The notes under the pieces were generated by a model. The model had not been told where the DNA came from. It saw only the letters and a program-made list of their open reading frames with translations, and searched no databases. From Thermoanaerobaculia bacterium (GTDB lineage Bacteria > Acidobacteriota > Thermoanaerobaculia > Gp7-AA8), in the NCBI GenBank assembly GCA_034664845.1, contig JAXDGW010000027.1:65687-129686 (forward strand): a DNA stretch of 64,000 nucleotides, read 5' to 3'. Of the stretch, positions 40,088 to 56,670 are shown in pieces. The position numbers and the translations under genes are program-made. The stretch's first letter is position 1. Every line of letters begins with the position of its first letter.

Positions 40088-41443
40088 GTGATGCAGCGAG
40101 CGGCGCTGCTCCTCGGAAGAAAGGCTGACCTCTCTTCGCTCGACGCGCTCTGCTCCGGGGAACCGGAGATGGAGATTCACGCCCTGGAATGGGACCGCGT
40201 TCCGCTGGAGTCGCTGGCGGCACGGCCGGAGCTGATGATCGTTGCGGTGGGCGCTGCCGGCGTGCTCGAGAGCGCAGCCTTTTTCGCGCATCTGGCCTCA
40301 CGGCGCGTCCGCCAGGTCGTGCTGGCGCTGGCTCGCGCGGACGATCGGGAGACGCTGGCCGTGGCGATCGCTCATGCGGACGACTTCGCGCTCTGGCCGG
40401 CGGATCCAGTCGAGATCGGACTCCGCATCGCGCGGCTGATGTCGGTCGCCGATCCCACTCCGCGGGAGATCGGCGGCCGGCTCGCGGAATCGGTCGCGCT
40501 GGCCCAGCTCGTCGGAAGCGATCCCCGGTTCCTTGAGGCCATCCGCCCCATTCCGCTTTTTGCGCGCAGCGAAATGCCGGTGCTGATCATCGGCGAGACC
40601 GGTTCGGGAAAGGAGCTGTGCGCCCGCGCGCTGCACTTCCTCAGTCCGCGGCGCGATGAGCCCTTCATCGCCGCCGACTGCAGTGCCATCCCCGATCATC
40701 TCTTCGAGAATGAGATGTTCGGACACTCGCGGGGTGCGTATACGGATGCACATCTCGATCAGAAGGGTCTGGCCGCATTGGCTCGCAAGGGGACGCTGTT
40801 CCTCGACGAGATCGACGCGCTGTCACCGGCGGCGCAGGGAAAGCTGCTTCGATTTCTGCAGGAGAAGACGTACAGACCGCTCGGCAGCGAGAAGTTCCTC
40901 CCCGCCCAGGCGACGATCCTCGCCGCAACGAACTGCGATCTCGATGTTGAAGTGCGCGAGAAACGCTTTCGCTCGGACCTCTACTACCGGCTGAACGTAT
41001 TGCAGCTCCGCCTTCCGCCATTGCGCGAACGGCGCCACGACATCCCGCTGCTGGCCCGGCATTTCCTGGCCGCGGCCTCGGCGAAAATGAAAGTCGACCG
41101 AACGTTCTCCCCGCAGGCGCTCCGCAAGCTGAGCGCGTACGAATGGCCGGGTAACGTGCGCGAGCTCTGCAACCTCGTGCAGCGCGCGGCGGTGATTGCC
41201 GAGGGAGGCGTGGTGCTGCCGTGTCACATCGAGATTGCAGGAGCGTCGGACCAATGCGCCTCCGGCACCTTCCGCGCGGGCCGTACGCAGGCCATTCAGA
41301 TGTTCGAGCGCGAGTACGTCCGCGACATGCTGACCCGCCACTCCGGAAACATCACAAGAGCCGCGCGTGAGGCGGGACAGGAACGGCGGGCATTTGGGAG
41401 GCTGGTGAAGAAGTACCGGTTGACCGGCGCATTCAGTGGCTGA
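40088..41443 (+). CDS. Sigma-54-dependent transcriptional activator (NtrC-family EBP) with degenerate receiver-like N-domain
   Basis: Walker A GETGSGKE. GAFTGA-variant FGHSRGAYTDA. Walker B LFLDEID. C-terminal HTH. Lies ~1.7 kb upstream of the contractile-system locus. Confidence 0.75.
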   Translation: MMQRAALLLGRKADLSSLDALCSGEPEMEIHALEWDRVPLESLAARPELMIVAVGAAGVLESAAFFAHLASRRVRQVVLALARADDRETLAVAIAHADDFALWPADPVEIGLRIARLMSVADPTPREIGGRLAESVALAQLVGSDPRFLEAIRPIPLFARSEMPVLIIGETGSGKELCARALHFLSPRRDEPFIAADCSAIPDHLFENEMFGHSRGAYTDAHLDQKGLAALARKGTLFLDEIDALSPAAQGKLLRFLQEKTYRPLGSEKFLPAQATILAATNCDLDVEVREKRFRSDLYYRLNVLQLRLPPLRERRHDIPLLARHFLAAASAKMKVDRTFSPQALRKLSAYEWPGNVRELCNLVQRAAVIAEGGVVLPCHIEIAGASDQCASGTFRAGRTQAIQMFEREYVRDMLTRHSGNITRAAREAGQERRAFGRLVKKYRLTGAFSG

Positions 41444-41511: not shown

Positions 41512-42927
41512 CTAACGGCGAACCACTTTAGCCGGCGCACCCTTCTGCACGTCCGCCTTCGCCTCTAATCCATTTAGAAGATCCTGGATCTCCGTCGAGA
41601 TGTCGAGGAAGGTACCGTACTTAACATCGGCGCTGATTCCGACGCTCTTAGGCTTCAATTTCGCAATTTCTTCAGCGGTAGTAGGCGTGAATTTCAAGCC
41701 ACCAACCGACTTCGAGGCTTCCCACTTGCTCTCGAACGACTGGAACTCTTTGATCCTCACCTTGCACGTCCATGGCGATTGTTTTCCGTCGAGGTTCTTC
41801 GTGAAGCTCATTTCCAATCCGAAATTGTCTTCTCCGCCCCGCAACGGAAACGCGACGGCAAGAGCCTCCTTAACATCTTCGAAGTCATGTCTCAGCAGCG
41901 CACGCCCGATTGCGCCTGCTCTGAGCAAGCCCTTGATACTCCGGGTGACCGCAGCCGGGTCGGCATCGGCATCTTCCATTTCGGCCTTGATCGCCATCGT
42001 TTTCTCGTGCAATGTGCCGTCGGTTACGCGGCGCGACAGGCGGAGATCGAACGACGACTTGCCAACCTTGGTTTTCACCGACGTGGCCGTTTCGGTAAAA
42101 CCAACCGTATTCGTTCTGCCAACATCTTTGAGACCGGCAAGCGTTTCGACGGCTATCTCGTCGTCCTTCTTATCGGTCATCCCCACACCAAGCCCAATCG
42201 CTGCCTCAAAGCCGACGGAGGGATCATTCGCGAGCCTGTTCTTATAGGTTTCCCACAGAGAGGGAGCCCAGAGAATCAGTGGAGCCAGCGACGGGTTGTA
42301 TTCAATCATCCGCATGCGCAACGCCTTCGATGTGGCCAACGCCTGCAGCCAGGCATCGGCTCCAGCTTTCTTCAACGCATAGTGAATAATCTGCTTTGCG
42401 GCGTCGACAAAAGCGTCGGTGAGATCCTCGCCTTCGAGTTTTACATACTGAAACTCCTTTGCCTCGAACCAGAGGAACGCCGCCTTGATGTCGAGTTGCA
42501 GCTCGAGCTCTTTTTCTTTACCAGACTTTGACCACTCGCCCTCAATCTTGAAGGCAACTGTAAGACCCGGGATCTCCATCGGCACAGTGACTTCGAGCGC
42601 GACGCTGATGAAGATACCGAATCCGCTCTCACTTTCGACGCTCTTCTTCTCTCCGGTCTCGTCCATCTCGGCCGCGAGCTCTTTGAGCGTGAGTTTGCGC
42701 GGAGGTGGTTTGTACTCCCCCAGATCCGATCTGATTGGACCCGGCTCTGGTGAGCTCCACACGTATCCATATTCGCCACCACTGTTCTTGCTTTTTGCAG
42801 CGATCGCTTGGTTTCCTACGCTGCGTTGCAACTGTGCGGACGGGCGCAGGCTCCCGATCTTCGCGTTTGGGCGTGTATCGAGGGCCGTTGGCTCTCTCTT
42901 TGGTATCGCGCTTCGCGAGTGGGGCAT
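41512..42927 (-). CDS. Hypothetical protein, low-GC, long disordered N-terminus (candidate contractile-system cargo)
   Basis: GC of this gene (~50-55%) is visibly below its neighbours. ~100 N-terminal residues are rich in P/S/G/K/R; the remainder is a globular domain with no recognised motif. Start ambiguous (ATG 42927 or GTG 43002). Confidence 0.4.
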   Translation of the reverse strand: MPHSRSAIPKREPTALDTRPNAKIGSLRPSAQLQRSVGNQAIAAKSKNSGGEYGYVWSSPEPGPIRSDLGEYKPPPRKLTLKELAAEMDETGEKKSVESESGFGIFISVALEVTVPMEIPGLTVAFKIEGEWSKSGKEKELELQLDIKAAFLWFEAKEFQYVKLEGEDLTDAFVDAAKQIIHYALKKAGADAWLQALATSKALRMRMIEYNPSLAPLILWAPSLWETYKNRLANDPSVGFEAAIGLGVGMTDKKDDEIAVETLAGLKDVGRTNTVGFTETATSVKTKVGKSSFDLRLSRRVTDGTLHEKTMAIKAEMEDADADPAAVTRSIKGLLRAGAIGRALLRHDFEDVKEALAVAFPLRGGEDNFGLEMSFTKNLDGKQSPWTCKVRIKEFQSFESKWEASKSVGGLKFTPTTAEEIAKLKPKSVGISADVKYGTFLDISTEIQDLLNGLEAKADVQKGAPAKVVRR

Positions 42928-43125
42928 GTTCGCAACGTACGCCCCACCACGGATTCGCGCAACGGGACAAACACCACTCTGATATGGGCGAAACCTGCCC
43001 ACCCCGTCACACTATCGGCCAATGCAGTCCATCGACGGTCAAGACCGGGTCATGAGTGACCCACCGCGCCCCACAACCCAGGAAAGCTTTCTTTTCAAAT
43101 CAACAACTTACTCCACTCATCGCTA

Positions 43126-43140
43126 TGGCCCCTCCCTTGC
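43126..43140 (+). promoter_or_regulatory. Sigma-54-type -24/-12 promoter candidate (TGGCCC-N5-TTGC)
   Basis: TGGC at 43126-43129 and TTGC at 43137-43140 give exact GG-N10-GC spacing, ~15-50 nt upstream of the first gene of the tail-like locus. Confidence 0.45.
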
Positions 43141-43155
43141 GAACCGCCCCTCCCA

Positions 43156-43428
43156 ATGGTCCGCCCTGCCCACGCGGTCATCAAAGAGATCATGCGTTAC
43201 TTTGTCGAACATCCTCATGCGCTCGATTCGCTGGAGGGCGTGGCCCGGTGGCGGCTGCTGCAGCGGCGCATCGATGACACGGTCTCCGAGACGGAGAGCG
43301 CATTGGAGTGGCTCGTCGCGAACGGATACCTCCAGCGCGTCGACGTCACGTTCGGACCTTCTCTCTTCCGTATCGCCGCGGAGAACCCGAATGGCGTCGA
43401 GCGCCTGCTGGCCGAGGAGACGTCGTGA
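43156..43428 (+). CDS. Small hypothetical protein, first gene of contractile-system locus
   Basis: ORF with GTGA overlap into the DUF4255 gene. An alternative start at MRYFVEH (43192) is preceded by AAAGAG. Confidence 0.4.
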   Translation: MVRPAHAVIKEIMRYFVEHPHALDSLEGVARWRLLQRRIDDTVSETESALEWLVANGYLQRVDVTFGPSLFRIAAENPNGVERLLAEETS

Positions 43429-44021
43429 GCGACTTCACCGCGGTGCGCGCGGTGAGCCAGACGCTGAAGGAGCTACTGGAGCGGGAGATCACCAACAGCG
43501 ACAACACGGAAGTATTCGGCGTTCCGATCTTCCTCAACTCGCCGCGCTTCCTCCGGGAAGAGAAGAACACATCGGGGATCTCGCTCTGGCTCTACATGAT
43601 GCGTCGCGAGCCCGACACGCTGAACCGGCCGCAGGAACGGCCGGCATCCTCGCAAATCAAGCGCCGTCCACTGCCGCTCACACTCCACTATCTGATCTGC
43701 GCCCTGCACAAGGAGCCGCTCGACGAGCAGAAGCTCCTCGGCAAGGTCGCTCAGGTCTTTCACGATCACGCCATCATCGAGCCGGGCGACCTGCGCGAAA
43801 CCCTGGCCGGCGAGGATCTGCAACTTCGGCTGGTGCTCGACGCCCCGACGCTCGAGGAGCTCTCGCGCGTCTGGGACGCGCTGAATGAGCCGTATCAGCT
43901 CTCGCTCGCCTACACGGTGCAGGTCGTCTCCATCGATTCCGATCGCGACGCCGCGGTTCGTCCGCCGGTGTTGGTGTCGACGCAGCAGCCATCGCAGATC
44001 GCCGGCGGAGGCGCGGCGTGA
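43425..44021 (+). CDS. DUF4255 (Pvc16/Afp16-like) tail-terminator/cap protein of extracellular contractile injection systems
   Basis: ISLWLYMMRREPDTLNRP matches the DUF4255 [IV]NLFLY..E....RN signature; ~200 aa; GTG start overlaps the upstream stop. Confidence 0.65.
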   Translation: MSDFTAVRAVSQTLKELLEREITNSDNTEVFGVPIFLNSPRFLREEKNTSGISLWLYMMRREPDTLNRPQERPASSQIKRRPLPLTLHYLICALHKEPLDEQKLLGKVAQVFHDHAIIEPGDLRETLAGEDLQLRLVLDAPTLEELSRVWDALNEPYQLSLAYTVQVVSIDSDRDAAVRPPVLVSTQQPSQIAGGGAA

Positions 44022-45076
44022 CGGTGTTCACTACTGACGAGCGTGTGTACAACGTCGTCCTCGACGGCGCGATCCGGCGCCGCGCGCTGATCATCGCGCG
44101 GGTCGTGGACGCGGTGGTGACAAGCGCCGGCGCGCCTGTACCGCCGCGAAACCCGCTCAGCGCTCATGTGGACCGGCGCGGCGCGACGGTGCGCATCGGC
44201 AGCGGAGGGACACTGGCCGTGTCCGGACGAACCGAGCAGCTCCTCCCCGATCCATCCTCGACGACTCCGATCACGTTCACGATCTCGATTCGAGCGCACG
44301 GCTACCGGACGCACGTCGAGGCGGTCATCATCGCTCCCACCGCCACGCTCCCCATCGACCTCGGCACGATCGCGCTTCAGCCCTTGCCGGTGCGGTTGGA
44401 GGGTCGGGTGACACACGAGAGGGATCGGACAGCGATCGCGGGGGCGTCGATCGTGGCGCGGAAGTCCGACAAGATCGTGCTTCTCCGCACGCCCCTTCAG
44501 CGCGACTACCTCAGAGGCACGACGGTGACTCCCCGAACGCTCACCCCCAGCGGAACACCCACGACGCTCGCCGCACCGGCCGCGCGGGGCTCGGGAATGG
44601 TGACGCTCGACGACGCAAGTTCATTCGCACCGGGCAATGTGGTTCGGTTCGCGGCCCGCGAATACGGCGTCATCGCCACGATCGCTGTCAATGACGTGAC
44701 GCTGATCGATCCGCTGCAGCACAGTCACGCCGCCGGAACATCGGTCTCGCACATCACCGCCAGCGCCGGAACCGCGATGACAACGCGGCGCGACGTGATC
44801 GCCGGCGACGCGCTTCTGCCGGTCGATACGGCAACCGATGCCACGGCGATCGAGATCGGCGGCGAGTACCACGACACCGGATTGCTTTCCGATTCGGACG
44901 GCTACTTCGCCGTCGACGGCATCGGCGGAGAGCGGGCGATCACGCTCATCACCATTGCGTCAGACCCGGCGCTCTCCGATGTCGAGACCACCGTAATCGT
45001 TGACTACAGCAAGCCAGAGAACAGCGTCAGCATGAGAGTCAAAAAGATACCGCCACCGCCGCTGCAATCGATGTAG
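44018..45076 (+). CDS. Hypothetical protein (possible carboxypeptidase-regulatory-like beta-sandwich), contractile-system accessory
   Basis: ORF with GTGA overlap to DUF4255 gene, consistent with translational coupling. No confident motif. Confidence 0.4.
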   Translation: MTVFTTDERVYNVVLDGAIRRRALIIARVVDAVVTSAGAPVPPRNPLSAHVDRRGATVRIGSGGTLAVSGRTEQLLPDPSSTTPITFTISIRAHGYRTHVEAVIIAPTATLPIDLGTIALQPLPVRLEGRVTHERDRTAIAGASIVARKSDKIVLLRTPLQRDYLRGTTVTPRTLTPSGTPTTLAAPAARGSGMVTLDDASSFAPGNVVRFAAREYGVIATIAVNDVTLIDPLQHSHAAGTSVSHITASAGTAMTTRRDVIAGDALLPVDTATDATAIEIGGEYHDTGLLSDSDGYFAVDGIGGERAITLITIASDPALSDVETTVIVDYSKPENSVSMRVKKIPPPPLQSM

Positions 45077-45098
45077 CGCGGAGAAAAGGAGACCAGTC

Positions 45099-47132
45099 GT
45101 GCCTCAATACCTAGCACCAGGCGTCTATGTCGAGGAAGTCGATACCGGGATCAAGACGATCGAAGGGGTAAGCACCAGCGTGGCGGGAATGGTGGGGGTA
45201 ACCCGCCGCGGCCCGACGAAGGGCCTGCCCCAGCTGGTGACGAGCTTCGCAGAATTCGAACGCCTGTACGGCGGCTACTTCGATTTCGGTACCGCGTTCG
45301 CCGGGCAACAGTTCCTCCCGCACGCCGTGAATGGGTTCTTCACGAATGGAGGGCGGCAGCTGTACGTGATGAGGGTGGCCAACGGTAATGCGTCAACCGG
45401 TGCTACGGCCGCGCAGAAACAGACAGAGGGCGGAATCGTGACACGGTTAAAGGCGAACGCCTCAGACGGTACAACTATGTTCACGCCACTGAGCACGCGT
45501 GGAATCCAGTTCCATACGAAAGTCCAACTTCGAATGATCAAGGACGGAGTCACCTACGATAGTGGAGCCGTCAGCGTCAGCGCAGTCGACCGCACGAGTG
45601 GTGAAGTGACGGTGGCGTCCGCCCTGAGCATCCCGACGGGTGGACCGACTGAATGGGACGCCCGATACACAATCGTCTACACAGATCGCAAGTCGACCGG
45701 CAGTCTCACGAATCCCACAGATACCCGTGAAAACAGCATCCTCATCGACGCCAGGGATCCGGGCTCATGGGGACGGGACATCACAGTCGAAGTCGCCGAT
45801 CAGGCGGCCGGCAAGGCGGAGTTGCTCAGCAACGATTCGTCGACCATTACCCTGAAATCGCCGTCTGTGGCCTTCTACCCCAACGCCTGGGTGGAGGTGG
45901 ATCAGGGCAAAACCAAGACGTTCATGAAGGTCACGGCCGTGAACGGTGCTGTGATCACCGTCAGCCCCGCTCCCGGCACGACCGACTTCAGTCCTGAGAC
46001 CCCGTTCTCGGTCACAACGCTGACAGTATGGGAGATGAATCTCACCGTAAGTCTTGGGAGCGCTTCGGAGCAGTACTCGGGCCTGACCCTCGAAAACGTT
46101 CCTGGAAAGTACATCGTCGATCGACTCAGCAACTCGTCTCTCGTTGCTGTCTCCCTGGCGTCTCTCACAGCCAGCGACACCGACCCTCTGCACTTCCCGG
46201 CAGCCGAGGACGGACGCACCATCCATCTAGACACCGGGGGTGCCGACGGCACCTCGTCCCCGGCCGTCACCGACTACGTCGGCTCCGGCGATCCCGGAAA
46301 CCGTACCGGCATCAAAGCCCTCGAAGACATCGACCGCATCAGCATCATCGCAGCGCCGGGGAACATCGACGTACCGGTTCAGAACGCGTTGATCGAGCAG
46401 TGCGAGCGTCTCAAAGACCGCTTCGCAATCCTTGATCCGAAAGGAACCACAGTCAACGACGTCACCACGCAGCGCCAGCAGTTCGACACCAAATACGCGG
46501 CCATCTACTACCCCAACCTCGTCGTCTTCGATCCCGTCACTTCGAACAACATCGTCGTCCCGCCCAGCGGCCACATGGCCGGCATTTATGCGCGCGTCGA
46601 CATCGAGCGCGGTGTCCACAAGGCGCCCGCTAACGAGGTCGTGCGCGGCATCGTCGACTTTGCCGCCACCATCAACAAAGAGACGCAGGATCTGCTCAAC
46701 CCCAGTCCGACGAACATCAACGTCTTCCGCGATTTTCGCGGTGACGGACGCGGGCTGCGCATCTGGGGCGCCCGGGTGATCACCAGCGACACCTCGTGGA
46801 AGTACGTCAACGTGCGGCGGCTCTTCCTCTTCCTCGAGGAATCGATCGACGAAGGGACTCAGTGGGTGGTCTTCGAGCCGAACGATGCGCCGTTGTGGTC
46901 GCGCGTGACGCAGAGCATCAGCGCTTTTCTGACGCGCGTCTGGCGCGACGGCGCGCTGCAGGGCGCGACTGCCGAGGAGGCATTTTTCGTCAAGTGCGAC
47001 CGGACGACGATGACGCAGGACGACATCGACAACGGCAAGCTGATCGCCATCGTCGGCGTCGCTCCCGTCAAGCCCGCCGAGTTCGTGATCATCCGCATCA
47101 GTCAATGGACCGCCGGCGCCTCCGCGGCGTGA
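45099..47132 (+). CDS. Contractile tail sheath protein, paralog 1
   Basis: N-terminal MPQYLAPGVYVEEVDTG sheath signature. C-terminal conserved sheath core (RVITSDTSWKYVNVRRLF...). Confidence 0.85.
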   Translation: MPQYLAPGVYVEEVDTGIKTIEGVSTSVAGMVGVTRRGPTKGLPQLVTSFAEFERLYGGYFDFGTAFAGQQFLPHAVNGFFTNGGRQLYVMRVANGNASTGATAAQKQTEGGIVTRLKANASDGTTMFTPLSTRGIQFHTKVQLRMIKDGVTYDSGAVSVSAVDRTSGEVTVASALSIPTGGPTEWDARYTIVYTDRKSTGSLTNPTDTRENSILIDARDPGSWGRDITVEVADQAAGKAELLSNDSSTITLKSPSVAFYPNAWVEVDQGKTKTFMKVTAVNGAVITVSPAPGTTDFSPETPFSVTTLTVWEMNLTVSLGSASEQYSGLTLENVPGKYIVDRLSNSSLVAVSLASLTASDTDPLHFPAAEDGRTIHLDTGGADGTSSPAVTDYVGSGDPGNRTGIKALEDIDRISIIAAPGNIDVPVQNALIEQCERLKDRFAILDPKGTTVNDVTTQRQQFDTKYAAIYYPNLVVFDPVTSNNIVVPPSGHMAGIYARVDIERGVHKAPANEVVRGIVDFAATINKETQDLLNPSPTNINVFRDFRGDGRGLRIWGARVITSDTSWKYVNVRRLFLFLEESIDEGTQWVVFEPNDAPLWSRVTQSISAFLTRVWRDGALQGATAEEAFFVKCDRTTMTQDDIDNGKLIAIVGVAPVKPAEFVIIRISQWTAGASAA

Positions 47133-47147
47133 GAGAGGAGTTGAGCC

Positions 47148-47588
47148 ATGCCACAGACAGGACAACGCAACGATCCGTACCGCGCCTATAACTTCGAGGT
47201 CCAGATCGACAGCTCCACCGTCGCCGGATTCCGCGAGGTCAGCGGCCTCAGTTTCACCACCGATCCCGTCGAATACCGCGAGGGCACCGACATCCCATTG
47301 CACGTGCGGAAGCTGACCGGCCTTCGCAAGTTCGCGAACCTCATGTTCAAGCGCGGCTTCACCAAGAACGACGAGTTGTGGAAGTGGTACAAGAACACGC
47401 TCAACGGTATCGAAGACCGGCGCAACGGTGCCATCGTCCTGCACGACGAGCTGCACAACGAAGTGCTGCGGTGGAACTTCGAGTTCGCCTGGATCACCAA
47501 GTGGGAAGGTCCGACGATGAACGCGACGAGCAACGACGTCGCCATCGAGACCATGGAGCTGGCCGTCGAGCGCGTCGAGCTCCAGTAG
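47148..47588 (+). CDS. Tail tube protein (T4 gp19/Afp1-like), paralog 1
   Basis: DPYRAYNFEVQIDSSTVAGFREVSGL is characteristic of tube proteins; 146 aa. Confidence 0.85.
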   Translation: MPQTGQRNDPYRAYNFEVQIDSSTVAGFREVSGLSFTTDPVEYREGTDIPLHVRKLTGLRKFANLMFKRGFTKNDELWKWYKNTLNGIEDRRNGAIVLHDELHNEVLRWNFEFAWITKWEGPTMNATSNDVAIETMELAVERVELQ

Positions 47589-47601
47589 GGCGGAGAGACC
47601 G

Positions 47602-50148
47602 ATGCCGCTCTACACCGCACCGGGAGTCCGGTTCGAGCCCGCCGATACCGGCAGCCAGGGCATCGCCGCGCTCCGCACGGACGTGGCGGGGTTCGTCGGC
47701 GTTTGCGAGCGGGGCCCGCTCGACGCACCGCTGCGCGCAGGCTCGTGGGAGCAGTTCCGGACGGCCTTCGGCGGCCTCGTTTCCAACGCCATCCTTCCCT
47801 GGTCGGTGAAGGCATTCTTCGAGAACGGCGGGCGCACCTGCTGGATCGTCCGCGTCGCTGCACAAACAACTTCGACCACGACCTCGGGCACACAGCCGTC
47901 CGACCGGCAATCGTCGAAGGTGCTCGATGCCAGCGGCTTTGCGGCCGGCGCCGTAGCGACGCTCGCACAGTCCATCGCCACGACGACCGCGACGATCGCG
48001 CAGCCCGCCGGCCGGCAATCGTCCGTCGTTGCCAGCGCCGCCGGCTTCATCGCAGGCGCGGTGGCGATGCTGTCGCAGACGACGCAAACGACGAGCACCG
48101 GCGCAGCGCAGCCGGCAGACCGACGTTCATCCCTTGTCGCCGATGTGACCGGCTTCACCCCCGGCGCGCTCGTCGAAGTCACCCAGGCGGGAAAGACGAC
48201 GCACCTGCTCGTGTCGGCCGCCGACGCCGCGACGAACACGCTCGTTTGGGACACGCCGCTCGACGCGACCTACAACCTCGCCGCCACTCTGCATTTCCGG
48301 ACGACGTGGCGCGACGCGCGGCGCGTTCATCGCGTCGACGGACCCACGATCCACTGGACCGTTGCGCTCGATCAGCAGTTTGATCTCGCCCGCGCGATTG
48401 CCATCGAGACCGTAGCCCGGAGTGAGCGATTGATCGCCGGCGTCACCGGTGCGACGGTCGCCTGGACGCGCCCATACGGCGGCGAATACGACCCGGCGCA
48501 GCCGATCGATGTCTCCACCGGCGCATCCGCGGCGAGCGGCGTACTGCTCGACGCGACCGGCACGCCGACGCTGCGCGTCGATGCAGCTAGCCCGGGAGCA
48601 TGGGGAAATGCGGTCAGCGTCGTCGTCTCGCGCACGAGCCGTCAGGCCACGCGCAGTGCCGGCGTGCAGCCGTCGAATGGTGCATTCAGCGTCGTCGAAA
48701 GCGTCGCCGGCATTTCCGCCGGAAGCGTGCTCCAGATTTTCCAGCCGGGCTCACGCACATTCCATCGCGTCGTCTCCTCCGTCGATGCGGCGCGCAAGCG
48801 CATCTTCTGGCGCGAGCCGCTCGGGAACCTCGATCTGACGCAGCCGTTTTCTCTGGAGAGCGACGAGATCACGATCGCTGTTTATGAGCGCGCCAACCTT
48901 CGCGAAGTTCTCGACCGGCTGACGCTGGTGGCGGGCGACGATCAACACGATGCGCCGGCGGTCGTCAACGCCGCCTCACGCTACCTCCGCCTGACCGATC
49001 TCGCCTCGCCGGCGCCGCCTCCCCTGTCGCATCCGAACCCGCAATCCCCCGCGCTCGACAACGGCCGGCTTCTGCTTGCCGGCGGCCGCGACGGCATCGC
49101 CGCGCTCCGGGCGGACGACATCACAGGAACCTTCACCACCGATGACCGCGCCGGCCTGCGGACGCTCGAGCTGGTGGATGAGGTTTCCTACATCGCCATC
49201 CCCGACGTCCTCATCGAGCGCGTTCCCGCGCTGGAAGTTCTCCCCGATCCGCCGCCCCCGCCGCCCGATCCATGCCTGCTCGCGCCGCCGCCGCTCTCGC
49301 TCGTCGCCGCTCCTCCGCCTCCGGCGATCCGCGAGCAGAGCGCGCACTTCAACCTCGACGAGGTGCTGCGCGTGCAGAACGCGATGATCGATCACTGCGA
49401 GCGTTTGCGCGACCGGATGGCGCTGCTCGACCCGCCGAACTTCCGCGCAACCGAGCTGGCGGAGATCGATAGCTGGCGGCGACGCTTCGATACGAAATAC
49501 GCCGCGCTCTACTTTCCCTGGATCGTCGTCCTCGATCCGCAGAACAGCCGCGATCTCACGCGGGCCATCCCGCCGAGCGGACACGTCGCCGGCATCTGGG
49601 CGCGCACCGACCTCACCACCGGCGTACACAAGGCGCCAGCGAATGAAGAGCTTCGCTGGGCGCAGGACTCAACGATCGACGTGACCGAGGCGGTGCATGA
49701 GATCCTCAATCCGGCGGGCATCAACGCCATTCGTCTCCTGCCGGCCCGCGGACTGCGCGTCTACGGAGCGCGCACCGTGAGCAGCGATCCGTCGTGGCGC
49801 TACGTCAGCGTGCGGCGGCTGCTGATCATGATCGAAGAGGCGGTCGAGGAAGCGCTGCAGTGGGCGGTCTTCGAGCCTCACGACGCCGCGCTTCGGGAAA
49901 AGGTAGCGATGTCGATCTACTCGTTCCTGGAGCGGCTCTGGGAACGGGGAGCACTGGCCGGCGCGACCGCGGGGGAGGCGTTCTACATCCGCTGCAACGA
50001 GTCCAACAACCCTCCCGACGCGGTCGCAAACGGCCACCTCCTCGCCGAGGTCGGCGTCGCGCCGGTCATCCCGGCGGAGTTCATCGTCTTCCGCATCGGC
50101 CGCACCGAGGATGTGCTCGAGACGAGCGAGCCGGAAGGGGGCGCGTGA
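47602..50148 (+). CDS. Contractile tail sheath protein, paralog 2, with large insertion containing a triplicated ~39-aa repeat
   Basis: N-terminal MPLYTAPGVRFEPADTG. C-terminal core RTVSSDPSWRYVSVRRLL. Internal repeats TQPSDRQSSKVLDASGFAAGAVATLAQS x3. Confidence 0.85.
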   Translation: MPLYTAPGVRFEPADTGSQGIAALRTDVAGFVGVCERGPLDAPLRAGSWEQFRTAFGGLVSNAILPWSVKAFFENGGRTCWIVRVAAQTTSTTTSGTQPSDRQSSKVLDASGFAAGAVATLAQSIATTTATIAQPAGRQSSVVASAAGFIAGAVAMLSQTTQTTSTGAAQPADRRSSLVADVTGFTPGALVEVTQAGKTTHLLVSAADAATNTLVWDTPLDATYNLAATLHFRTTWRDARRVHRVDGPTIHWTVALDQQFDLARAIAIETVARSERLIAGVTGATVAWTRPYGGEYDPAQPIDVSTGASAASGVLLDATGTPTLRVDAASPGAWGNAVSVVVSRTSRQATRSAGVQPSNGAFSVVESVAGISAGSVLQIFQPGSRTFHRVVSSVDAARKRIFWREPLGNLDLTQPFSLESDEITIAVYERANLREVLDRLTLVAGDDQHDAPAVVNAASRYLRLTDLASPAPPPLSHPNPQSPALDNGRLLLAGGRDGIAALRADDITGTFTTDDRAGLRTLELVDEVSYIAIPDVLIERVPALEVLPDPPPPPPDPCLLAPPPLSLVAAPPPPAIREQSAHFNLDEVLRVQNAMIDHCERLRDRMALLDPPNFRATELAEIDSWRRRFDTKYAALYFPWIVVLDPQNSRDLTRAIPPSGHVAGIWARTDLTTGVHKAPANEELRWAQDSTIDVTEAVHEILNPAGINAIRLLPARGLRVYGARTVSSDPSWRYVSVRRLLIMIEEAVEEALQWAVFEPHDAALREKVAMSIYSFLERLWERGALAGATAGEAFYIRCNESNNPPDAVANGHLLAEVGVAPVIPAEFIVFRIGRTEDVLETSEPEGGA

Positions 50149-50675
50149 TGGCGATCGGAATCCCCGGGCTCCGTTTCGATCCCGTCCGCTCCTACAACTT
50201 CCTCATCACGCTCGTCGACTCGACGAGCGCACTCGGCACCCTCGCTTCCGCGGTACAGAACATCGTCCTCGGCGGCTTCACCGAGTGCAGCGGCCTGGAG
50301 ATGGAACTGGAGATGGAGTCGTACAACGAGGGAGGCAACAACGGGCGCGCGCTCATTTTTCCGACGCGCGTGAAGTGGTCGCACATCCGCCTCAAGCGCG
50401 GCGCGGCGTTAAGCATGGAGCTGTGGAAGTGGCACTACAGCTTCGTCGAAGGAAAAGGGAAGCGGCGCGACGGCATCATCGTGCTGCAGGACGACCTTCA
50501 TATCCCCGTCCAGCTCTGGGCCTTCTCGCGCGGTCTGCCGGTGAAGTGGACCGGCCCTTCGATGAACGCGTCGCAGAGTCAGGTGGCGATCGAGGAGCTG
50601 GAGATCGCGCACGAAGGGCTGCGAAGCCATACGCCTGGCTCGGTGATCGGCGGCGTGGTGGAGAGTCTTTTCTAA
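50148..50675 (+). CDS. Tail tube protein, paralog 2 (Afp5-like)
   Basis: RSYNFLITLVD...GGFTECSGL; ATGA overlap with sheath 2. Confidence 0.8.
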   Translation: MAIGIPGLRFDPVRSYNFLITLVDSTSALGTLASAVQNIVLGGFTECSGLEMELEMESYNEGGNNGRALIFPTRVKWSHIRLKRGAALSMELWKWHYSFVEGKGKRRDGIIVLQDDLHIPVQLWAFSRGLPVKWTGPSMNASQSQVAIEELEIAHEGLRSHTPGSVIGGVVESLF

Positions 50676-50684
50676 GGAGGAGCG

Positions 50685-50885
50685 ATGGACGTGCACGTCG
50701 GCGAAATGAACAGCACCGTGCGGATGACCGACGCACAGTCGATGCTCAGCCCCGAGGTCTTCGAGCGGATCGTGCGCGCGGTGATGCAGCGGATGCGCGA
50801 AGAGCGGTCGCACGAGGAGCGCGTGGAGAAGGAGCGGCGCATCCGGCCGCGTGCGTCCGCGGTCGAAGGGACTTCCTGGGAGTAG
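50685..50885 (+). CDS. Small conserved-position protein (Afp6-like slot)
   Basis: Strong AAGGAGGAG RBS; 66 aa. Confidence 0.45.
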   Translation: MDVHVGEMNSTVRMTDAQSMLSPEVFERIVRAVMQRMREERSHEERVEKERRIRPRASAVEGTSWE

Positions 50886-50888
50886 ACG

Positions 50889-51590
50889 ATGGCGATCGCG
50901 AAGGCAAAGTTTGAGCGACTGAACGGCAGGCTGGCTGCCGTCGGCGACGCGATCGAGGTCTCGTTCAATCCGAACGAGCTGACCTACAACAAGGGCGTGC
51001 AACTCTCTGAGATCGCCATCCCCGGTCTCGACTCTCCGATCCTCCAATTCGTTCGCGGCCAGGCGGAGACGCTCGCAGTCGACCTCTTCTTCGACAGCAC
51101 GGATGAAGGGGGGACAGGCGCCGGCGCCGTATCTGTCACGACCCACACCGACCAGTTCTACAAACTGATCAAGATCGATCGGGCCACGCACGCACCACCT
51201 GTTTGCCGGTTTGTCTGGGGAAAAGGGCTGCCCTCCTCGAACATCATCGGAGCGTCATCGACGCAGGCGCACGGCACCTTCCAATGCGTCGTGGAGAGCG
51301 TGCGGCAGAAGTTCAGCCTCTTCAGCGCCGAAGGCGTGCCGTTGCGGGCGACGCTCTCGCTGTCGCTGAAGGAATACAAAACGCTGGAGGATCAGGTCAC
51401 CGAGATCGGCAAAGAGTCGGCCGATCACACACACGCGCGGGTTGTGCAACGCGGCGACACAGTGACGAGCATCGCGGCCGAGGCCTATGACGATCCGGCG
51501 CCGTGGCGCGCCATCGCCCTCCACAACGACATCGACGATCCGCTCGATCTCGAAGTGGGGACGATTCTGGAGGTCCCGGCGCTCCGCTGA
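50889..51590 (+). CDS. Tube-like tail protein with C-terminal LysM domain (Afp7/gpX-like)
   Basis: C-terminal LysM (VQRGDTVTSIAAEAYDDPAPWRAIALHNDIDDPLDLEVGTILEVP). Confidence 0.65.
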   Translation: MAIAKAKFERLNGRLAAVGDAIEVSFNPNELTYNKGVQLSEIAIPGLDSPILQFVRGQAETLAVDLFFDSTDEGGTGAGAVSVTTHTDQFYKLIKIDRATHAPPVCRFVWGKGLPSSNIIGASSTQAHGTFQCVVESVRQKFSLFSAEGVPLRATLSLSLKEYKTLEDQVTEIGKESADHTHARVVQRGDTVTSIAAEAYDDPAPWRAIALHNDIDDPLDLEVGTILEVPALR

Positions 51591-51598
51591 GGAAGACC

Positions 51599-52738
51599 AT
51601 GACCACCGCCGCCACTCCGATTTACGCCGATAAGAGGACGTTCTACGCGCCGGAGTTTCGGGTGACCGTCGGAAAGGATGTACCGCAACGGCCCATCTTC
51701 GACATCATCGACGTCACCTTCCACGACAAGATCAACACCATCGACTGGTTCGAGATCACGCTGAGCAACTGGGATTCGCAAGACCAGACATTCAAGTACG
51801 AGCCGCCACTCCTGCGATTCAAAGGACTCATCGAACCCGATTACCGCATCGACGTTCACATGGGTTATGCCGCCAAGGGCGAATTGCGCCTGATGAGCCG
51901 CGGAGTGATCACCGCCATCGAGCCGAACTATCCCGAAAGTGGCGCTCCCACACTCACAGTTCGAGGCCAGCATCTGCTTCATCGCGCCGAGCGCCGCCAA
52001 TACACGAAAACCTGGGAAAGAATGCGCGATAGCGAAGTTGCCAAAGAACTCGGCAACAAACCGCCCGACGTCAAGCAACCCAGCCTCGGCATTCCAATCG
52101 AGATCGATGAGAGCGCCAAGAGCCGCGAACCGAACGAAAAGATCGTTCTCGACAATCTGTCTCTCGTCAACTTCCTGCAGAAGCGCGCGAACCGCCGCGG
52201 CTATGTCTTCTATGTCGATCCGGCTGACGAAAAGAACGAGCTTCTCTATTTCGGCCCATCCGATCGGCCCAACCGCACCCAGTACGGCCTGAATTGGGGC
52301 GCCACGCTGATCAGCTTCCGCCCGACGTTCGCCGTAACGCAGCAAGCCGGACGTGTGACGGTGTGCGGAAAAGACCGGCTCACAGGCGAAAAAATCGCCG
52401 AGACCGCCGAGTTCCCAACCGACAACGACCTCAATCCCGAACTGCTGCCGCCGAAAGACAGTCACGACATCATCACGGATCCCCCGGCGCGATCGATCGC
52501 GGAGGCCAAGGCACGCGCGCATGAGGCCTTGAGCCAGTTCCGCCGCAACGTGATCAACGCCAGCGGATCCACCGTCGGTCTGCCCGATCTCCGCGCAGGA
52601 AGCTACGTCGTCATCGGTGGCCTCGGCAACGGCAGCCGCTTCAATGGCCGCTACTTCATCACCGGGACAACCCACACCATCGGATCGGGCGGCTACACCA
52701 CTTCGTTCGAGGCCCGCCGCGAGGACAAGGAGAGCTGA
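51599..52738 (+). CDS. Phage late-control gpD-like tail hub protein
   Basis: C-terminal GRYFITGTTHTIGSGGYTTSFEARRE is the hallmark of the P2 gpD family. Confidence 0.75.
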   Translation: MTTAATPIYADKRTFYAPEFRVTVGKDVPQRPIFDIIDVTFHDKINTIDWFEITLSNWDSQDQTFKYEPPLLRFKGLIEPDYRIDVHMGYAAKGELRLMSRGVITAIEPNYPESGAPTLTVRGQHLLHRAERRQYTKTWERMRDSEVAKELGNKPPDVKQPSLGIPIEIDESAKSREPNEKIVLDNLSLVNFLQKRANRRGYVFYVDPADEKNELLYFGPSDRPNRTQYGLNWGATLISFRPTFAVTQQAGRVTVCGKDRLTGEKIAETAEFPTDNDLNPELLPPKDSHDIITDPPARSIAEAKARAHEALSQFRRNVINASGSTVGLPDLRAGSYVVIGGLGNGSRFNGRYFITGTTHTIGSGGYTTSFEARREDKES

Positions 52739-52741
52739 CCG

Positions 52742-52987
52742 ATGCCCATCCCGCCCATCCTCCAACCCGGCGCCGTTGACGACGACGGCAACTGGATCAA
52801 TCCCGACGTCATGGCCAGGTACATGGACGACGCCCTTCCTCCTCCCGACGACCCGGAGGACTCGGGGAAAGCAGGCCGCCGGCAGTTTTTCATCGCCATC
52901 TCCAAAGGAGTCATCGGGTATCTGCGTGCGCATCCAGAAGCGTTCGTCGACGGCAGCGGCAACCAGGTGATCGGACAGATCAAGTGA
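52742..52987 (+). CDS. Small hypothetical protein between hub and spike
   Basis: 81-aa ORF, tightly packed between neighbours. Confidence 0.35.
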   Translation: MPIPPILQPGAVDDDGNWINPDVMARYMDDALPPPDDPEDSGKAGRRQFFIAISKGVIGYLRAHPEAFVDGSGNQVIGQIK

Positions 52988-53000
52988 TCGAGGAAAAACA

Positions 53001-53504
53001 ATGACGCGATTCACCGGAGTGATCGTCGGAACCGTTCAGGACGTCAACGACCCGAACGGGCTCGGGCGAATCCGTGTCGAGTTCCCCTGGATGGGCGGCG
53101 CCAGTCAGAGTCACTGGGCGCCGGTGGCCGCCGGAATGGCCGGCGGAGGCCGCGGCATGTTCTTCATGCCGGAGGTGGGCGACGAAGCGCTGGTCGCGTT
53201 CGATCATGGCGACGTCGATCAGGCCATCGTCCTCGGCTTTCTCTGGAACGGCCGCGATCTTCCGCCATCGAAAAACGTTCACGAGCGGGCGATCCGCTCC
53301 GTCAATGGCCACACCATCCGCTTCCTCGACTCCACTCCGGACGGCGGCAACCTCGGCGGAATCGTCATTGAAGACGGCCACCACAACCGCATCGTCCTCT
53401 CCAACGCAAAGATCACCATCCAGAGCACGGCCGTGCTCGACCTCCGCGCGCCGACGATCCTGATCAACGGCCGCGTCGTTACGCCGAACAGCAATCCGAT
53501 CTGA
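53001..53504 (+). CDS. gpV/gp5-like baseplate spike (OB-fold, VgrG spike domain)
   Basis: GVIVGTVQDVNDPNGLGRIRVEFPWM...PEVGDEALVAFDHGDVDQAIVLG typical of P2 gpV / VgrG spike. Confidence 0.8.
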   Translation: MTRFTGVIVGTVQDVNDPNGLGRIRVEFPWMGGASQSHWAPVAAGMAGGGRGMFFMPEVGDEALVAFDHGDVDQAIVLGFLWNGRDLPPSKNVHERAIRSVNGHTIRFLDSTPDGGNLGGIVIEDGHHNRIVLSNAKITIQSTAVLDLRAPTILINGRVVTPNSNPI

Positions 53505-53518
53505 CGAGAAACCGCGAA

Positions 53519-54280: not shown

Positions 54281-54681
54281 GCGGCCGCGATTTCCTCGGC
54301 ACCGGCTGGAGCTTCCCGGTCCGGCCCGGCCCGCGCGGCGGCTTTGTCTGGTCGTCCGCCGAAACCGACATCGAGGAGTCGATCTGGATCATCCTCGGCA
54401 CCGCCAAAGGGGAGCGCCAGATGCTTCCGCAGTTCGGATGCGGGATTCACAACTACGTCTTCGCGCCGAACAGCCCCACCACCCGCACGAGCATCGCCGA
54501 GGACGTCCGCGGCGCGCTCACCACCTTCGAGCCGCGCATCGATCTGACCGGCGTGCGCGTCGACGCCGCACCTGACGATCCCGCGCGGCTGTTCATCCGC
54601 ATCGACTACCGCGTCAGGAAAACGAACGCCTTCCACAACCTCGTCTATCCCTTTTATCTCAGCGAAGGGAAAGAGAGCTGA
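54277..54681 (+). CDS. gp25/GPW-like baseplate wedge protein
   Basis: GTGWSFP...[25 protein letters not shown]...ALTTFEPRI matches GPW_gp25. Confidence 0.8.
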
Positions 54682-54683
54682 CC

Positions 54684-56666: not shown

Positions 56667-56670
56667 GGAG

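What the first reader, a model, noticed from the sequence alone, without database searches (positions are those of the whole stretch)
43100..43160. Sigma-54-type promoter in front of the tail-like locus, 1.7 kb from a sigma-54 enhancer-binding protein gene
ctaTGGCCCctcccTTGCGaac at 43126-43140 has the canonical GG-N10-GC spacing of RpoN -24/-12 promoters. It lies just upstream of the first locus gene.

The nearest upstream plus-strand gene (40088..41443) is an NtrC-family sigma-54 activator with GAFTGA-like FGHSRGAYTDA and a degenerate receiver domain. This suggests signal-dependent, RpoN-controlled expression of the injection machinery.
Basis: partly seen in the sequence, partly recalled or inferred. 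Interest (0 to 1): 0.55.

Follow-up and report, generated by a model that had tools for sequence, protein, structure and literature searches.

The report
Conserved sigma-54 promoter driving injection-system operon
The short motif is very probably a real sigma-54 promoter: with its activator gene and activator-binding sites it forms a control cassette conserved in 80 related soil-bacterium loci, giving a testable answer to how these phage-tail-like injection machines are switched on.

Summary
TGGCCC-CTCCC-TTGCG lies at 43126-43141 (+), 15 nt before the ATG of the first locus gene (43156).

In this window alone the motif is not convincing. TGGC-N7-TTGC occurs 6 times against 2.3 expected. An independent Desulfovibrio sigma-54 matrix gives it 8.6 bits, rank 4 of about 128,000 positions.

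Comparison settles it. In all 80 non-redundant acidobacterial loci holding a homolog of that first gene, a [T]GG[C]-N8-[T]TGC[W] motif sits at the same place. GG and TGC are invariant and the spacer varies freely.

- 45 of 52 loci with enough upstream DNA have the same activator (EBP) gene directly upstream.
- 51 of 73 carry the palindrome GGGTC-N6-GACCC, in two clusters about 100 bp apart. The window has a perfect copy at 43047-43062.
- An IHF-consensus site (43098-43110) lies between enhancer and promoter.
- The EBP has a pseudo-receiver domain and a GAYTDA loop, a natural variant reported as compatible with sigma-54 activation.

The cassette is portable: in other loci it heads polysaccharide-export operons instead.

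Verdict: a canonical enhancer-dependent sigma-54 promoter and a new regulon member. No experiment supports it yet.

The parts
40088..41443 (+). Enhancer-binding protein (bEBP): pseudo-receiver domain, AAA+ sigma-54 interaction domain with a GAYTDA loop, and a C-terminal Fis-type HTH
   Evidence: - Pfam: Sigma54_activat 4.3e-57, AAA_lid_14 2.6e-22, HTH_8 1.8e-4.
- Best solved relatives are ZraR, NifA, NtrC1 and LuxO.
- The GAYTDA loop is seen.
- The N-terminal family against CheY/NtrC/Spo0F/PhoB receivers gives hhalign probability 97.4%, E 1.2e-11. D57 is replaced by V, K109 by W, and the DD pair by GR.
- Homologs are adjacent to the promoter in 45 of 52 loci.
41512..42927 (-). Inserted gene (471 aa from ATG 42927; longest ORF runs to 43002) within a ~1.5-kb insertion (~41423-42932) between the EBP stop codon and the enhancer. 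Not part of the conserved cassette.
   Evidence: - L030 aligns to window 40022-41422 and to 42933-43500, with only about 96 nt in between.
- No homolog in any of 108 related loci.
- No Pfam or NCBIfam match.
42986..43000 (.). Degenerate remnant of the distal activator-binding site (GGGCGAAACCTGCCC)
   Evidence: - It aligns with the perfect copy GGGTCAATCTCGACCC of L029.
- It falls near the distal position cluster seen across loci.
- It does not itself match the consensus within 1 mismatch.
43047..43062 (.). Proximal upstream activating sequence: perfect palindrome GGGTCATGAGTGACCC, centred about 97 nt before the predicted start site
   Evidence: - It is the only perfect copy in the 64-kb window.
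- GGGTC-N6-GACCC with up to 1 mismatch occurs in 51 of 73 loci: 73 sites, against 0.015 expected per locus.
- Sites cluster at -57..-93 and -160..-215 from the T of TGGC.
43098..43110 (+). IHF-consensus site AATCAACAACTTA (WATCARNNNNTTR), preceded by a T-rich tract, lying between enhancer and promoter
   Evidence: - Conserved in L029, L030 and L011 at -28/-30.
- Strict matches in 7 of 79 loci against about 0.24 expected.
- A+T content rises at -40..-10 across loci.
- Candidate only.
43126..43141 (+). Sigma-54 -24/-12 promoter TGGCCC-CTCCC-TTGCG (GG at 43127-43128, GC at 43139-43140)
   Evidence: - Sequence read.
- Top hit of the whole window with the family matrix, 14.2 bits.
- Rank 4 of 127,964 positions with the independent D. 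vulgaris matrix.
- A homologous motif is present in 80 of 80 loci.
43150..43154 (+). Predicted transcription start, about 12 nt after the C of the -12 GC. It would give a leader of only 2-6 nt before ATG 43156.
   Evidence: - This is inferred from the standard geometry of sigma-54 promoters; it was not measured.
- Six loci from other parts of the family also place the ATG at +2..+4.
- Most other loci have a 12-25 nt leader, in many of which a purine-rich (GGAG-like) stretch precedes the start (my reading of the sequences; not counted).
43156..43428 (+). First gene: conserved ~90-aa protein with an invariant LEGVARWRLL motif, part of the regulatory cassette
   Evidence: - The family has 1,339 or more clusters and no Pfam domain.
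- AlphaFold2 gives pLDDT 87.5: two helices, a beta-hairpin and a third helix.
- Only weak fold matches, mostly winged-helix proteins, E 0.67 or worse.
- Residues before the internal Met are conserved in distant homologs, so the start is ATG 43156.
43425..44021 (+). Pvc16_N / Afp16-like tail terminator. Its GTG start overlaps the stop codon of the small gene (GTGA).
   Evidence: - Pfam Pvc16_N 1.5e-41.
- The overlap is read.
- 79 homologs found.
44018..63569 (+). Remainder of the eCIS operon. It comprises an unknown 352-aa gene, sheath (45099-47132), tube (47148-47588) and a second sheath (47602-50148). These are followed by CIS_tube+LysM (50889-51590), a GPD-like hub (51503-52738; sub-threshold Phage_GPD match) and the spike OB domain (53001-53504). 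Last come Baseplate_J (54684-56666), NHL + Tail_P2_I (56599-58683) and a collagen-repeat fibre (58699-61767).
   Evidence: - Pfam hits.
- All genes are on the plus strand.
- No sigma-70-like promoter was found in 41300-61000.
- No plus-strand terminator-like site lies before 57880.
- No further sigma-54 matrix hit lies on the plus strand inside the locus.

Best explanation
Window 43126-43141 is the -24/-12 element of an enhancer-dependent sigma-54 promoter that drives the eCIS operon.

**Shown by sequence and comparison**
- The promoter motif.
- A perfect GGGTC-N6-GACCC palindrome 79 nt upstream of it.
- An IHF-consensus site in between.
- A bEBP gene with an intact sigma-54 contact loop upstream on the same strand.
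- All of these are conserved as one cassette across Acidobacteriota.

**Inferred mechanism**
1. RNA polymerase with sigma-54 sits on the promoter as a closed complex.
2. The EBP binds the palindrome(s) through its Fis-type HTH and oligomerises.
3. A bend in the DNA, IHF-assisted or intrinsic, brings the EBP to the polymerase.
4. ATP hydrolysis, transmitted through the GAYTDA loop, opens the promoter.
5. Transcription starts near 43152, giving an almost leaderless mRNA.
6. The first cistron is the ~90-aa cassette protein. It is translationally coupled (GTGA overlap) to the Pvc16-like gene and followed by more than 20 kb of sheath, tube, baseplate and fibre genes.

**Control.** The EBP's N-terminal domain has a receiver fold but lacks the phospho-acceptor Asp, the acidic pair and the Lys. 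Control is therefore probably by a protein partner or a ligand, not by phosphorylation. The signal is unknown.
For: 1. **Motif at the stated site.** Confirmed.
2. **Conservation.** All 80 non-redundant loci have GG-N10-GC with T1 74%, C4 86%, T12 76%, T13 near 100% and W16 83%. The motif lies -105 to -145 nt from a fixed codon of the first gene.
3. **Controls.** 96% of these zones score 10 bits or more, against about 1% for the reverse strand, shuffled zones or random zones.
4. **Strict patterns.** TGGC-N7-TTGC is found in 38 of 80 loci against 0.17 expected. TGGY-N8-TGC is found in 56 of 80 against 1.1 expected.
5. **Independent matrix.** The D. vulgaris sigma-54 matrix (PMC4641369, Additional file 6) picks the same site as the best hit in 74 of 80 loci. 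The zone median is 9.6 bits, against -2.3 for random zones.
6. **Non-coding in several loci.** At least six loci have in-frame stop codons between the motif and the start codon.
7. **Activator synteny.** An EBP homolog lies on the same strand directly upstream in 45 of 52 loci. Its stop codon is typically about 100-330 nt from the promoter.
8. **Contact loop.** GAFTDA in 36 loci, GAYTDA in 6, GAFTGA in 3. GAFTDA and GAYTDA are listed among D. vulgaris EBP variants expected to keep activating ability.
9. **Enhancer.** The palindrome is found in 51 of 73 loci in two clusters about 100 bp apart. The EBP's HTH is highly conserved across loci.
10. **IHF-like site.**
11. **No competing signals.** No sigma-70-like promoter, no early plus-strand terminator and no Rfam family.
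12. **Sigma-54 in the phylum.** All 3 Acidobacteria genomes surveyed in PMC3372290 Table 1 have RpoN. Kazakov et al. count 7-26 EBPs per acidobacterial genome.
Against: - There is no transcript, start-site or genetic data of any kind.
- rpoN is not in the 64-kb window or in the fetched loci. I could not search the rest of the MAG.
- In this window the site is only a moderate match to an independent matrix: 8.6 bits, with three other positions equal or better. Its -12 element ends in G rather than A/T.
- The distal enhancer copy is degenerate in the window and in L030.
- A 1.5-kb insertion separates the EBP gene from its target.
- The predicted start leaves only about 4 nt before the ATG, so translation would have to be leaderless-like. 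Whether this clade can do that is unknown.
- The IHF consensus is found in only 7 of 79 loci.
Confidence: 0.85

Rival explanations
1. Decayed cassette. The promoter family is real, but in this genome it no longer works as an EBP-activated unit. The reasons would be the 1.5-kb insertion, a degenerate distal enhancer copy and weak -24/-12 flanks. The operon would then be silent or driven from another, unrecognised promoter.
For: - The insertion is unique to the window.
- The distal site fails the consensus.
- The site scores below the 10th percentile of D. vulgaris promoters.
- L030, the closest full locus, also lacks any enhancer copy within 1 mismatch.
Against: - The insertion lies upstream of both enhancer positions and leaves 193 nt of conserved upstream DNA intact.
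- The proximal palindrome is perfect.
- The stretch from promoter to ATG is the best-conserved part of the intergenic region among the window, L029 and L030.
- The EBP ORF is intact, with all its domains.
- An EBP can act in trans, so its gene's distance from the target does not matter.
Confidence: 0.08
2. The conserved sigma-54 site serves only the small first gene, for example as an autoregulatory loop or a poised non-productive sigma-54 binding site. The tail genes would be transcribed from separate promoters.
For: - In related loci the small gene is followed by quite different cargo: eCIS, polysaccharide-export genes or a toxin-like protein. The conserved unit is therefore EBP, promoter and small gene.
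- Promoter types of Acidobacteriota are poorly known, so the sigma-70 scan could miss internal promoters.
Against: - In the window the small gene's stop codon overlaps the Pvc16 start (GTGA).
- No terminator-like site follows on the plus strand for about 14 kb.
- In the window, gaps between the first locus genes are small, and all genes share one strand.
Confidence: 0.05
3. A chance GC-rich match that happens to resemble GG-N10-GC, with no promoter function.
For: - Pattern counts within the window are not above expectation.
- Several intragenic positions score as well with the independent matrix.
Against: - The motif is invariant at the homologous position in 80 of 80 diverged loci while the spacer and flanks vary.
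- It co-occurs with an EBP gene and a positioned palindrome.
Confidence: 0.02

Closest known systems
Classical enhancer-dependent sigma-54 promoters with an NtrC-family activator and IHF (glnAp2/NtrC, nifH/NifA, Pu/XylR; my own knowledge)
   Same: - GG-N10-GC core with TGGC...TTGC.
- Dyad-symmetric activator sites about 100 and 200 bp upstream.
- An IHF-type site in between.
- An AAA+ activator with a GAFTGA-type loop and a Fis-type HTH.
   Different: - The activator has a pseudo-receiver with no phospho-acceptor.
- The contact loop is GAFTDA/GAYTDA.
- The enhancer sequence, GGGTC-N6-GACCC, was not found described (not searched for in the literature).
- In this clade the predicted leader is only about 4 nt.
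- The target is a phage-tail-like injection operon.
Sigma-54/EBP control of type VI secretion clusters (VasH in Vibrio and Aeromonas; RpoN control of the P. aeruginosa H2/H3 clusters; PMC3166118, PMC3804575, PMC8710571; review PMC10482370)
   Same: An EBP gene embedded in or next to a contractile-injection gene cluster activates sigma-54 promoters of sheath and tube genes. IHF involvement is reported for Vibrio fluvialis T6SS2 (PMC5963220).
   Different: - This is an extracellular (Afp/PVC-type) system with Pvc16, not a T6SS.
- The EBP is not an ortholog of any named family; all NCBIfam equivalog scores are far below their cut-offs.
- A conserved small protein always follows the promoter.
Known eCIS regulators: GerE/LuxR-type 'first conserved eCIS transcriptional regulator' (Geller et al. 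2021, PMC8213781); RfaH-like AnfA1 of Serratia Afp (my own knowledge); PrtN/PrtR of R-pyocins (review PMC10598620)
   Same: A locus-linked regulator placed at the head of an eCIS operon.
   Different: - The mechanism differs: sigma-54 with an ATP-driven activator.
- Sigma54_activat appears only in Geller's supplementary tables, as a 'shell' domain (49 genes, 4 phyla).
- The word sigma does not occur in the main texts of PMC8213781, PMC6899500 or PMC10598620.
- No paper in the library combines eCIS with RpoN.
PspF/PspA and HrpS/HrpV circuits (my own knowledge)
   Same: The first product of a sigma-54 operon is a small protein genetically tied to its EBP.
   Different: This is an analogy only. 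There is no sequence or fold similarity, and no interaction was tested.

Membership tests
Sigma-54 (RpoN) -24/-12 promoter | GG and GC doublets exactly 10 nt apart within TGGCAC-N5-TTGCW | tested here: met
   TGGCCC-CTCCC-TTGCG at 43126-43141. It matches 9 of the 12 specified consensus positions, and both doublets are present.
Sigma-54 (RpoN) -24/-12 promoter | Score with an independent sigma-54 weight matrix clearly above genomic background | tested here: inconclusive
   The D. vulgaris matrix gives 8.6 bits, rank 4 of 127,964 positions. That is below the 10th percentile of training sites, and three intragenic positions score as well.
Sigma-54 (RpoN) -24/-12 promoter | Intergenic, oriented toward a gene, at a distance compatible with its start codon | tested here: met
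   The site lies in the 43003-43155 gap on the plus strand. The C of GC is 16 nt before ATG 43156.
Sigma-54 (RpoN) -24/-12 promoter | Conservation of the two doublets, but not the spacer, at orthologous positions | tested here: met
   80 of 80 loci. GG and TGC are invariant, while spacer columns carry 0.3 bit or less. Controls give about 1%.
Sigma-54 (RpoN) -24/-12 promoter | Cognate bEBP and upstream activating sequences | tested here: met
   The EBP is adjacent in 45 of 52 loci. The palindrome is found in 51 of 73 loci in two position clusters, with a perfect copy at 43047-43062.
Sigma-54 (RpoN) -24/-12 promoter | rpoN present in the genome | not testable with these tools
All 3 surveyed Acidobacteria have RpoN (PMC3372290).
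Sigma-54 (RpoN) -24/-12 promoter | Transcription start about 12 nt after the GC, dependent on rpoN and the EBP | not testable with these tools
   This needs 5' end mapping and genetics.
Bacterial enhancer-binding protein (NtrC family) | AAA+ Sigma54_activat domain | tested here: met
   PF00158 4.3e-57 over residues 141-307, with AAA_lid_14. ZraR 1ojl gives 8.5e-68.
Bacterial enhancer-binding protein (NtrC family) | GAFTGA sigma-54 contact loop | tested here: met
   The loop is GAYTDA. The family uses GAFTDA or GAYTDA. Both are listed among D. vulgaris EBP variants expected to keep activating ability.
Bacterial enhancer-binding protein (NtrC family) | C-terminal Fis-type HTH | tested here: met
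   HTH_8 scores 21.6 bits against a cut-off of 22, E 1.8e-4. The alignment to ZraR runs through the HTH.
Two-component response regulator (phosphorylatable receiver) | Receiver fold with the acidic pair, the phospho-acceptor Asp, Thr/Ser and Lys | tested here: not met
   The fold is present (hhalign 97.4%, E 1.2e-11). However D57 is replaced by V, the DD pair by GR and K109 by W, and these columns are not conserved in the family. Pfam Response_reg is only sub-threshold in orthologs.
Extracellular contractile injection system (Afp/PVC type) | Pvc16/Afp16, sheath, tube, LysM-tube, spike/hub and gp6/gp7-like baseplate genes in one plus-strand cluster | tested here: met
   Pfam hits. An Afp15-type ATPase was not seen before the window ends.

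The most novel reading that the evidence does not exclude
The EBP with its pseudo-receiver and the invariably following ~90-aa LEGVARWRLL protein form a previously undescribed two-protein regulatory cassette, carrying its own enhancer and sigma-54 promoter. The cassette moves between large cell-exterior operons: eCIS in most loci, and NusG-paralog plus Wza/Wzc polysaccharide-export clusters in others. The small protein would act on the EBP or on the promoter, as a feedback partner (as PspA does for PspF) or as a winged-helix co-factor.
Probability: 0.3. Interest if true: 0.65.

Novelty: new member of a known kind. Interest (0 to 1): 0.52.

Why it matters
How eCIS loci are switched on is largely unknown. 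[quoted passage not shown]

This work defines a complete, conserved control region for a large acidobacterial group of eCIS loci: the promoter, the enhancer sequence, the activator, and probably a bend site.

That makes induction directly testable. N-terminally truncated EBPs are often constitutively active (my own knowledge), so expressing such a form could turn on silent loci, in the native host or in a heterologous rpoN+ host. Neither requires knowing the natural signal.

It extends sigma-54 control of contractile injection machines from the T6SS to the extracellular type. It also fits the view of sigma-54 as a controller of the cell exterior (my own knowledge), because the same cassette heads polysaccharide-export operons.

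Tried and rejected
- **Pattern counts in the window alone.** Not significant, so they cannot carry the claim.
- **The search for related loci with the single Pvc16 protein in genomes.** No relatives found. I switched to an alignment of the small protein.
- **Is the motif coding sequence of an N-terminally longer small protein?** Rejected. Several loci have in-frame stop codons between the motif and the start.
- **Is translation from the internal ATG 43192, giving a 40-nt leader?** Considered unlikely. Residues before it (VIKEI / VKQIL / AKEVL) are conserved in distant homologs, and no other start codon lies between 43156 and 43192.
- **A known RNA element in 41000-45000.** None at E up to 1.
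- **Sigma-70-like promoters in 41300-61000.** None found. The scan may not suit this phylum.
- **rpoN in the window or the loci.** None found.
- **A general IHF site.** Only 7 of 79 loci match strictly, so it is kept as a clade-level candidate.
- **Identity of the small protein.**
  - Pfam and NCBIfam give nothing significant.
  - 19 of 38 members have a sub-threshold 26-residue match to phage GP46 (E 0.006 or worse). I set this aside, because the protein also heads polysaccharide operons.
  - Foldseek against the PDB finds nothing below E 0.67.
- **Assigning the EBP to a named family (AtoC, PEP-CTERM PrsR, NifA, NorR and others).** All scores are far below the curated cut-offs.
Full report
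**1. The observation**

One search shows cgctaTGGCCCctcccTTGCGaacc with the T of TGGC at 43126 and the C of TTGC at 43140. The motif is on the plus strand, in the gap between a minus-strand ORF (41512-43002 in its longest form) and the first plus-strand gene of the locus (ATG 43156).

Pfam confirms the surroundings:
- 40088-41443 is an enhancer-binding protein: Sigma54_activat 4.3e-57, AAA_lid_14 and HTH_8.
- 43425-44021 is Pvc16_N.
- Two sheath genes, a gp19-type tube, CIS_tube+LysM, a GPD-like hub (sub-threshold match), the spike OB domain, Baseplate_J, Tail_P2_I with NHL repeats and a collagen-repeat fibre follow. All are on the plus strand.

This is an Afp/PVC-type extracellular contractile injection system (eCIS). 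The contig belongs to a Thermoanaerobaculia MAG of the Acidobacteriota.

**2. Is it more than chance?**

Within the window alone, barely.
- TGGC-N7-TTGC occurs 6 times against 2.27 expected.
- The fuller consensus with two mismatches is at or below expectation.

For an independent matrix I used 87 Desulfovibrio vulgaris sigma-54 promoters from Kazakov et al. 2015 (PMC4641369, Additional file 6). It gives the site 8.6 bits. That is rank 4 of 127,964 positions, but below the 10th percentile of the training sites, and three intragenic positions score as well.

**3. Comparative test**

The first gene encodes a ~90-aa protein with an invariant LEGVARWRLL motif and many homologs. An alignment of these homologs retrieved 28 genome loci and 80 metagenome loci. 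All of the named genome loci are Acidobacteriota. After removing near-duplicates, 80 loci remained.

- In every one, a [T]GG[C]-N8-[T]TGC[W] motif lies 105-145 nt upstream of the LEGVARWRL codons.
- GG and TGC are invariant. T1 is 74%, C4 86%, T12 76% and W16 83%. Spacer columns carry almost no information.
- The best score in this zone reaches 10 bits in 96% of loci. The reverse strand gives 1.3%, shuffled zones 1.0% and random zones of the same loci 0.9%.
- The strict patterns are enriched 50- to 200-fold over the loci's own background.
- The independent D. vulgaris matrix picks the same site as the best hit in 74 of 80 loci.
- In at least six loci, in-frame stop codons lie between the motif and the start codon, so the motif is not coding.

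With the family matrix, the window's site is the top hit of the whole 64 kb.

**4. The activator**

A homolog of the EBP lies on the same strand directly upstream in 45 of 52 loci with at least 2.2 kb of upstream DNA. Its stop codon is typically about 100-330 nt from the promoter.

The window is the exception. Against L030 (EBP region 84% identical in DNA), the window carries about 1.5 kb of extra DNA (~41423-42932) holding one minus-strand gene. That gene has no homolog in any related locus and no family match. It lies upstream of the enhancer region, which stays attached to the promoter.

- **Contact loop.** The family's sigma-54 contact loop is GAFTDA in 36 loci, GAYTDA in 6 (including the window) and GAFTGA in 3. 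GAFTDA and GAYTDA are listed among D. vulgaris EBP variants expected to keep activating ability.
- **N-terminal domain.** A profile of 18 orthologs matches canonical receivers at 97.4% probability (E 1.2e-11). The phospho-acceptor Asp, the acidic pair and the conserved Lys are all replaced (V, GR and W in the window), and these columns are not conserved in the family.
- **Family assignment.** No curated NCBIfam equivalog claims the protein.

**5. Enhancer and bend**

The palindrome GGGTC-N6-GACCC, with up to 1 mismatch, occurs in 51 of 73 loci. That is 73 sites, against 0.015 expected per 330 nt. The sites fall in two clusters, at -57..-93 and at -160..-215 from the T of TGGC, about 100 bp apart.

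- The window has a perfect copy at 43047-43062, the only one in 64 kb.
- At the position where L029 has a perfect distal copy, the window has only a degenerate remnant (42986-43000).
- The EBP's C-terminal HTH is highly conserved across loci, which fits a conserved target sequence.

Between enhancer and promoter lies AATCAACAACTTA (43098-43110), which matches the IHF consensus WATCARNNNNTTR. It is conserved in L029, L030 and L011. Strict matches occur in 7 of 79 loci against about 0.24 expected. I treat it as a clade-level candidate.

**6. Start site and operon**

With the GC at 43139-40, the start is predicted near 43152, about 4 nt before ATG 43156. This is an inference, not a measurement.

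- Residues before the internal Met13 are conserved in distant homologs, and no other start codon is available, so 43156 is the likely start.
- Six loci from other parts of the family also place an ATG at +2..+4. Most others have a 12-25 nt leader, and many show a purine-rich (GGAG-like) stretch before the start when the sequences are read; I did not count these.
- The small gene's stop codon overlaps the Pvc16 start (GTGA).
- No sigma-70-like promoter was found in 41300-61000, and no plus-strand terminator-like site lies before 57880.
- No Rfam family matches 41000-45000.

**7. What the cassette is**

Of 45 loci with at least 4 kb downstream, 34 continue into eCIS genes. Eleven do not.
- L009, L013 and L026 carry Wza/Wzc-type polysaccharide-export genes.
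- L013, L019, L026 and L105 have a NusG paralog directly after the small gene. L019 also carries a Wzc-type gene.
- L028 continues with an amidase plus C70-peptidase protein.

The conserved unit is therefore EBP, enhancer, sigma-54 promoter and small protein. Its cargo varies.

The small protein has a confident model (pLDDT 87.5): helix, long helix, beta-hairpin, helix. Its fold matches are weak, mostly to winged-helix proteins. Its role is unknown. A feedback or co-factor role is a hypothesis only.

**8. Comparison with what is known**

- The architecture is that of classical NtrC/NifA/XylR-type promoters (my own knowledge).
- Sigma-54/EBP control of contractile machines is established for the T6SS (VasH; RpoN control of the P. 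aeruginosa H2/H3 clusters; PMC3166118, PMC3804575, PMC10482370).
- For eCIS the library holds no paper combining eCIS with RpoN. The word sigma does not occur in the main texts of three eCIS papers.
- Geller et al. 2021 call GerE the first conserved eCIS regulator.
- Their supplementary tables list Sigma54_activat as a 'shell' domain (49 genes, 4 phyla).
- The same tables show Leptothrix cholodnii Lcho_3032 (EBP), 3033 (72 aa, no Pfam), 3034 (afp16), 3035, 3036 (sheath) and 3037 (tube). This is the gene order of the window, in a betaproteobacterium, so the arrangement probably extends beyond Acidobacteriota. I could not fetch that DNA.
- Sigma-54 is usual in Acidobacteria.

**9. Verdict**

The site is a new member of a well-known kind of promoter. 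It is documented here by strong comparative evidence and completed by an enhancer, a candidate bend site and a pseudo-receiver activator.

What remains unshown is transcription itself, the presence of rpoN in this MAG, the inducing signal and the role of the small protein.

Noticed in passing
window 41423-42932 (ORF 41512-42927, minus strand): A 1.5-kb insertion with one 471-aa gene of unknown function sits exactly between the EBP stop codon and the enhancer. It is absent from the close relative L030, has no homolog in 108 related loci, and has no Pfam or NCBIfam match.
   Followed up: partly
L009, L013, L019, L026, L105 and L028, downstream of the small gene: The same cassette (EBP, enhancer, sigma-54 promoter, small protein) sometimes heads cargo other than eCIS. 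L009, L013 and L026 carry Wza/Wzc-type polysaccharide-export genes. L013, L019, L026 and L105 have a NusG paralog right after the small gene, and L019 also a Wzc-type gene. In L028 it heads a 1,108-aa amidase_2 + peptidase_C70 protein.
   Followed up: partly
window 43156-43428: The ~90-aa LEGVARWRLL protein family is large (1,339 or more 90%-identity clusters) and has no Pfam or NCBIfam family. Its AlphaFold2 model is confident, but it has only weak winged-helix-like fold matches. 19 of 38 members show a sub-threshold 26-residue match to phage GP46.
   Followed up: partly
window 43128-43136 and 43146-43154: A direct 9-mer repeat, GCCCCTCCC, occurs once in the promoter spacer and once just before the ATG. 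The C-rich stretch from promoter to ATG is the best-conserved part of the intergenic region in the window, L029 and L030. No Shine-Dalgarno sequence is visible before ATG 43156.
   Followed up: no
L012, L020, L025, L078, L085, L096, L097, L107, between the predicted start site and the start codon: A clade-specific inverted repeat (GGAGTGTC-N3-5-GTGACAC) overlaps the GTG start of the small gene. It might be an operator or a translational hairpin.
   Followed up: no
window 9585-9600 (+): A weaker sigma-54-like motif, CGGCAC-CCCTT-TCGCA (GG-N10-GC), lies in an intergenic gap 17 nt before the ATG of a 904-aa alpha-amylase-family gene (9617-12331). No second EBP gene is present in the window.
   Followed up: no
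window 21697 (+), 47544 (-), 46084 (-): Three positions score as well as the real site with the D. vulgaris sigma-54 matrix. Two lie within the sheath/tube gene coordinates on the antisense strand, and one is at the 5' edge of ORF 21670-22779. They are probably background.
   Followed up: no
window 56599-61767: The locus's putative fibre and baseplate-periphery genes carry NHL repeats fused to Tail_P2_I and a long collagen-triple-helix repeat protein. These are possible target-binding parts.
   Followed up: no
PMC8213781 supplementary data (Leptothrix cholodnii Lcho_3032-3037; Pelobacter propionicus Ppro_0378-0379): In the Leptothrix locus the order is EBP, small unannotated ORF (72 aa), afp16, an unannotated gene, sheath and tube, the same as in the window. 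In Pelobacter only the EBP and a following small ORF (about 75 aa) were seen. The cassette therefore probably extends beyond Acidobacteriota.
   Followed up: partly
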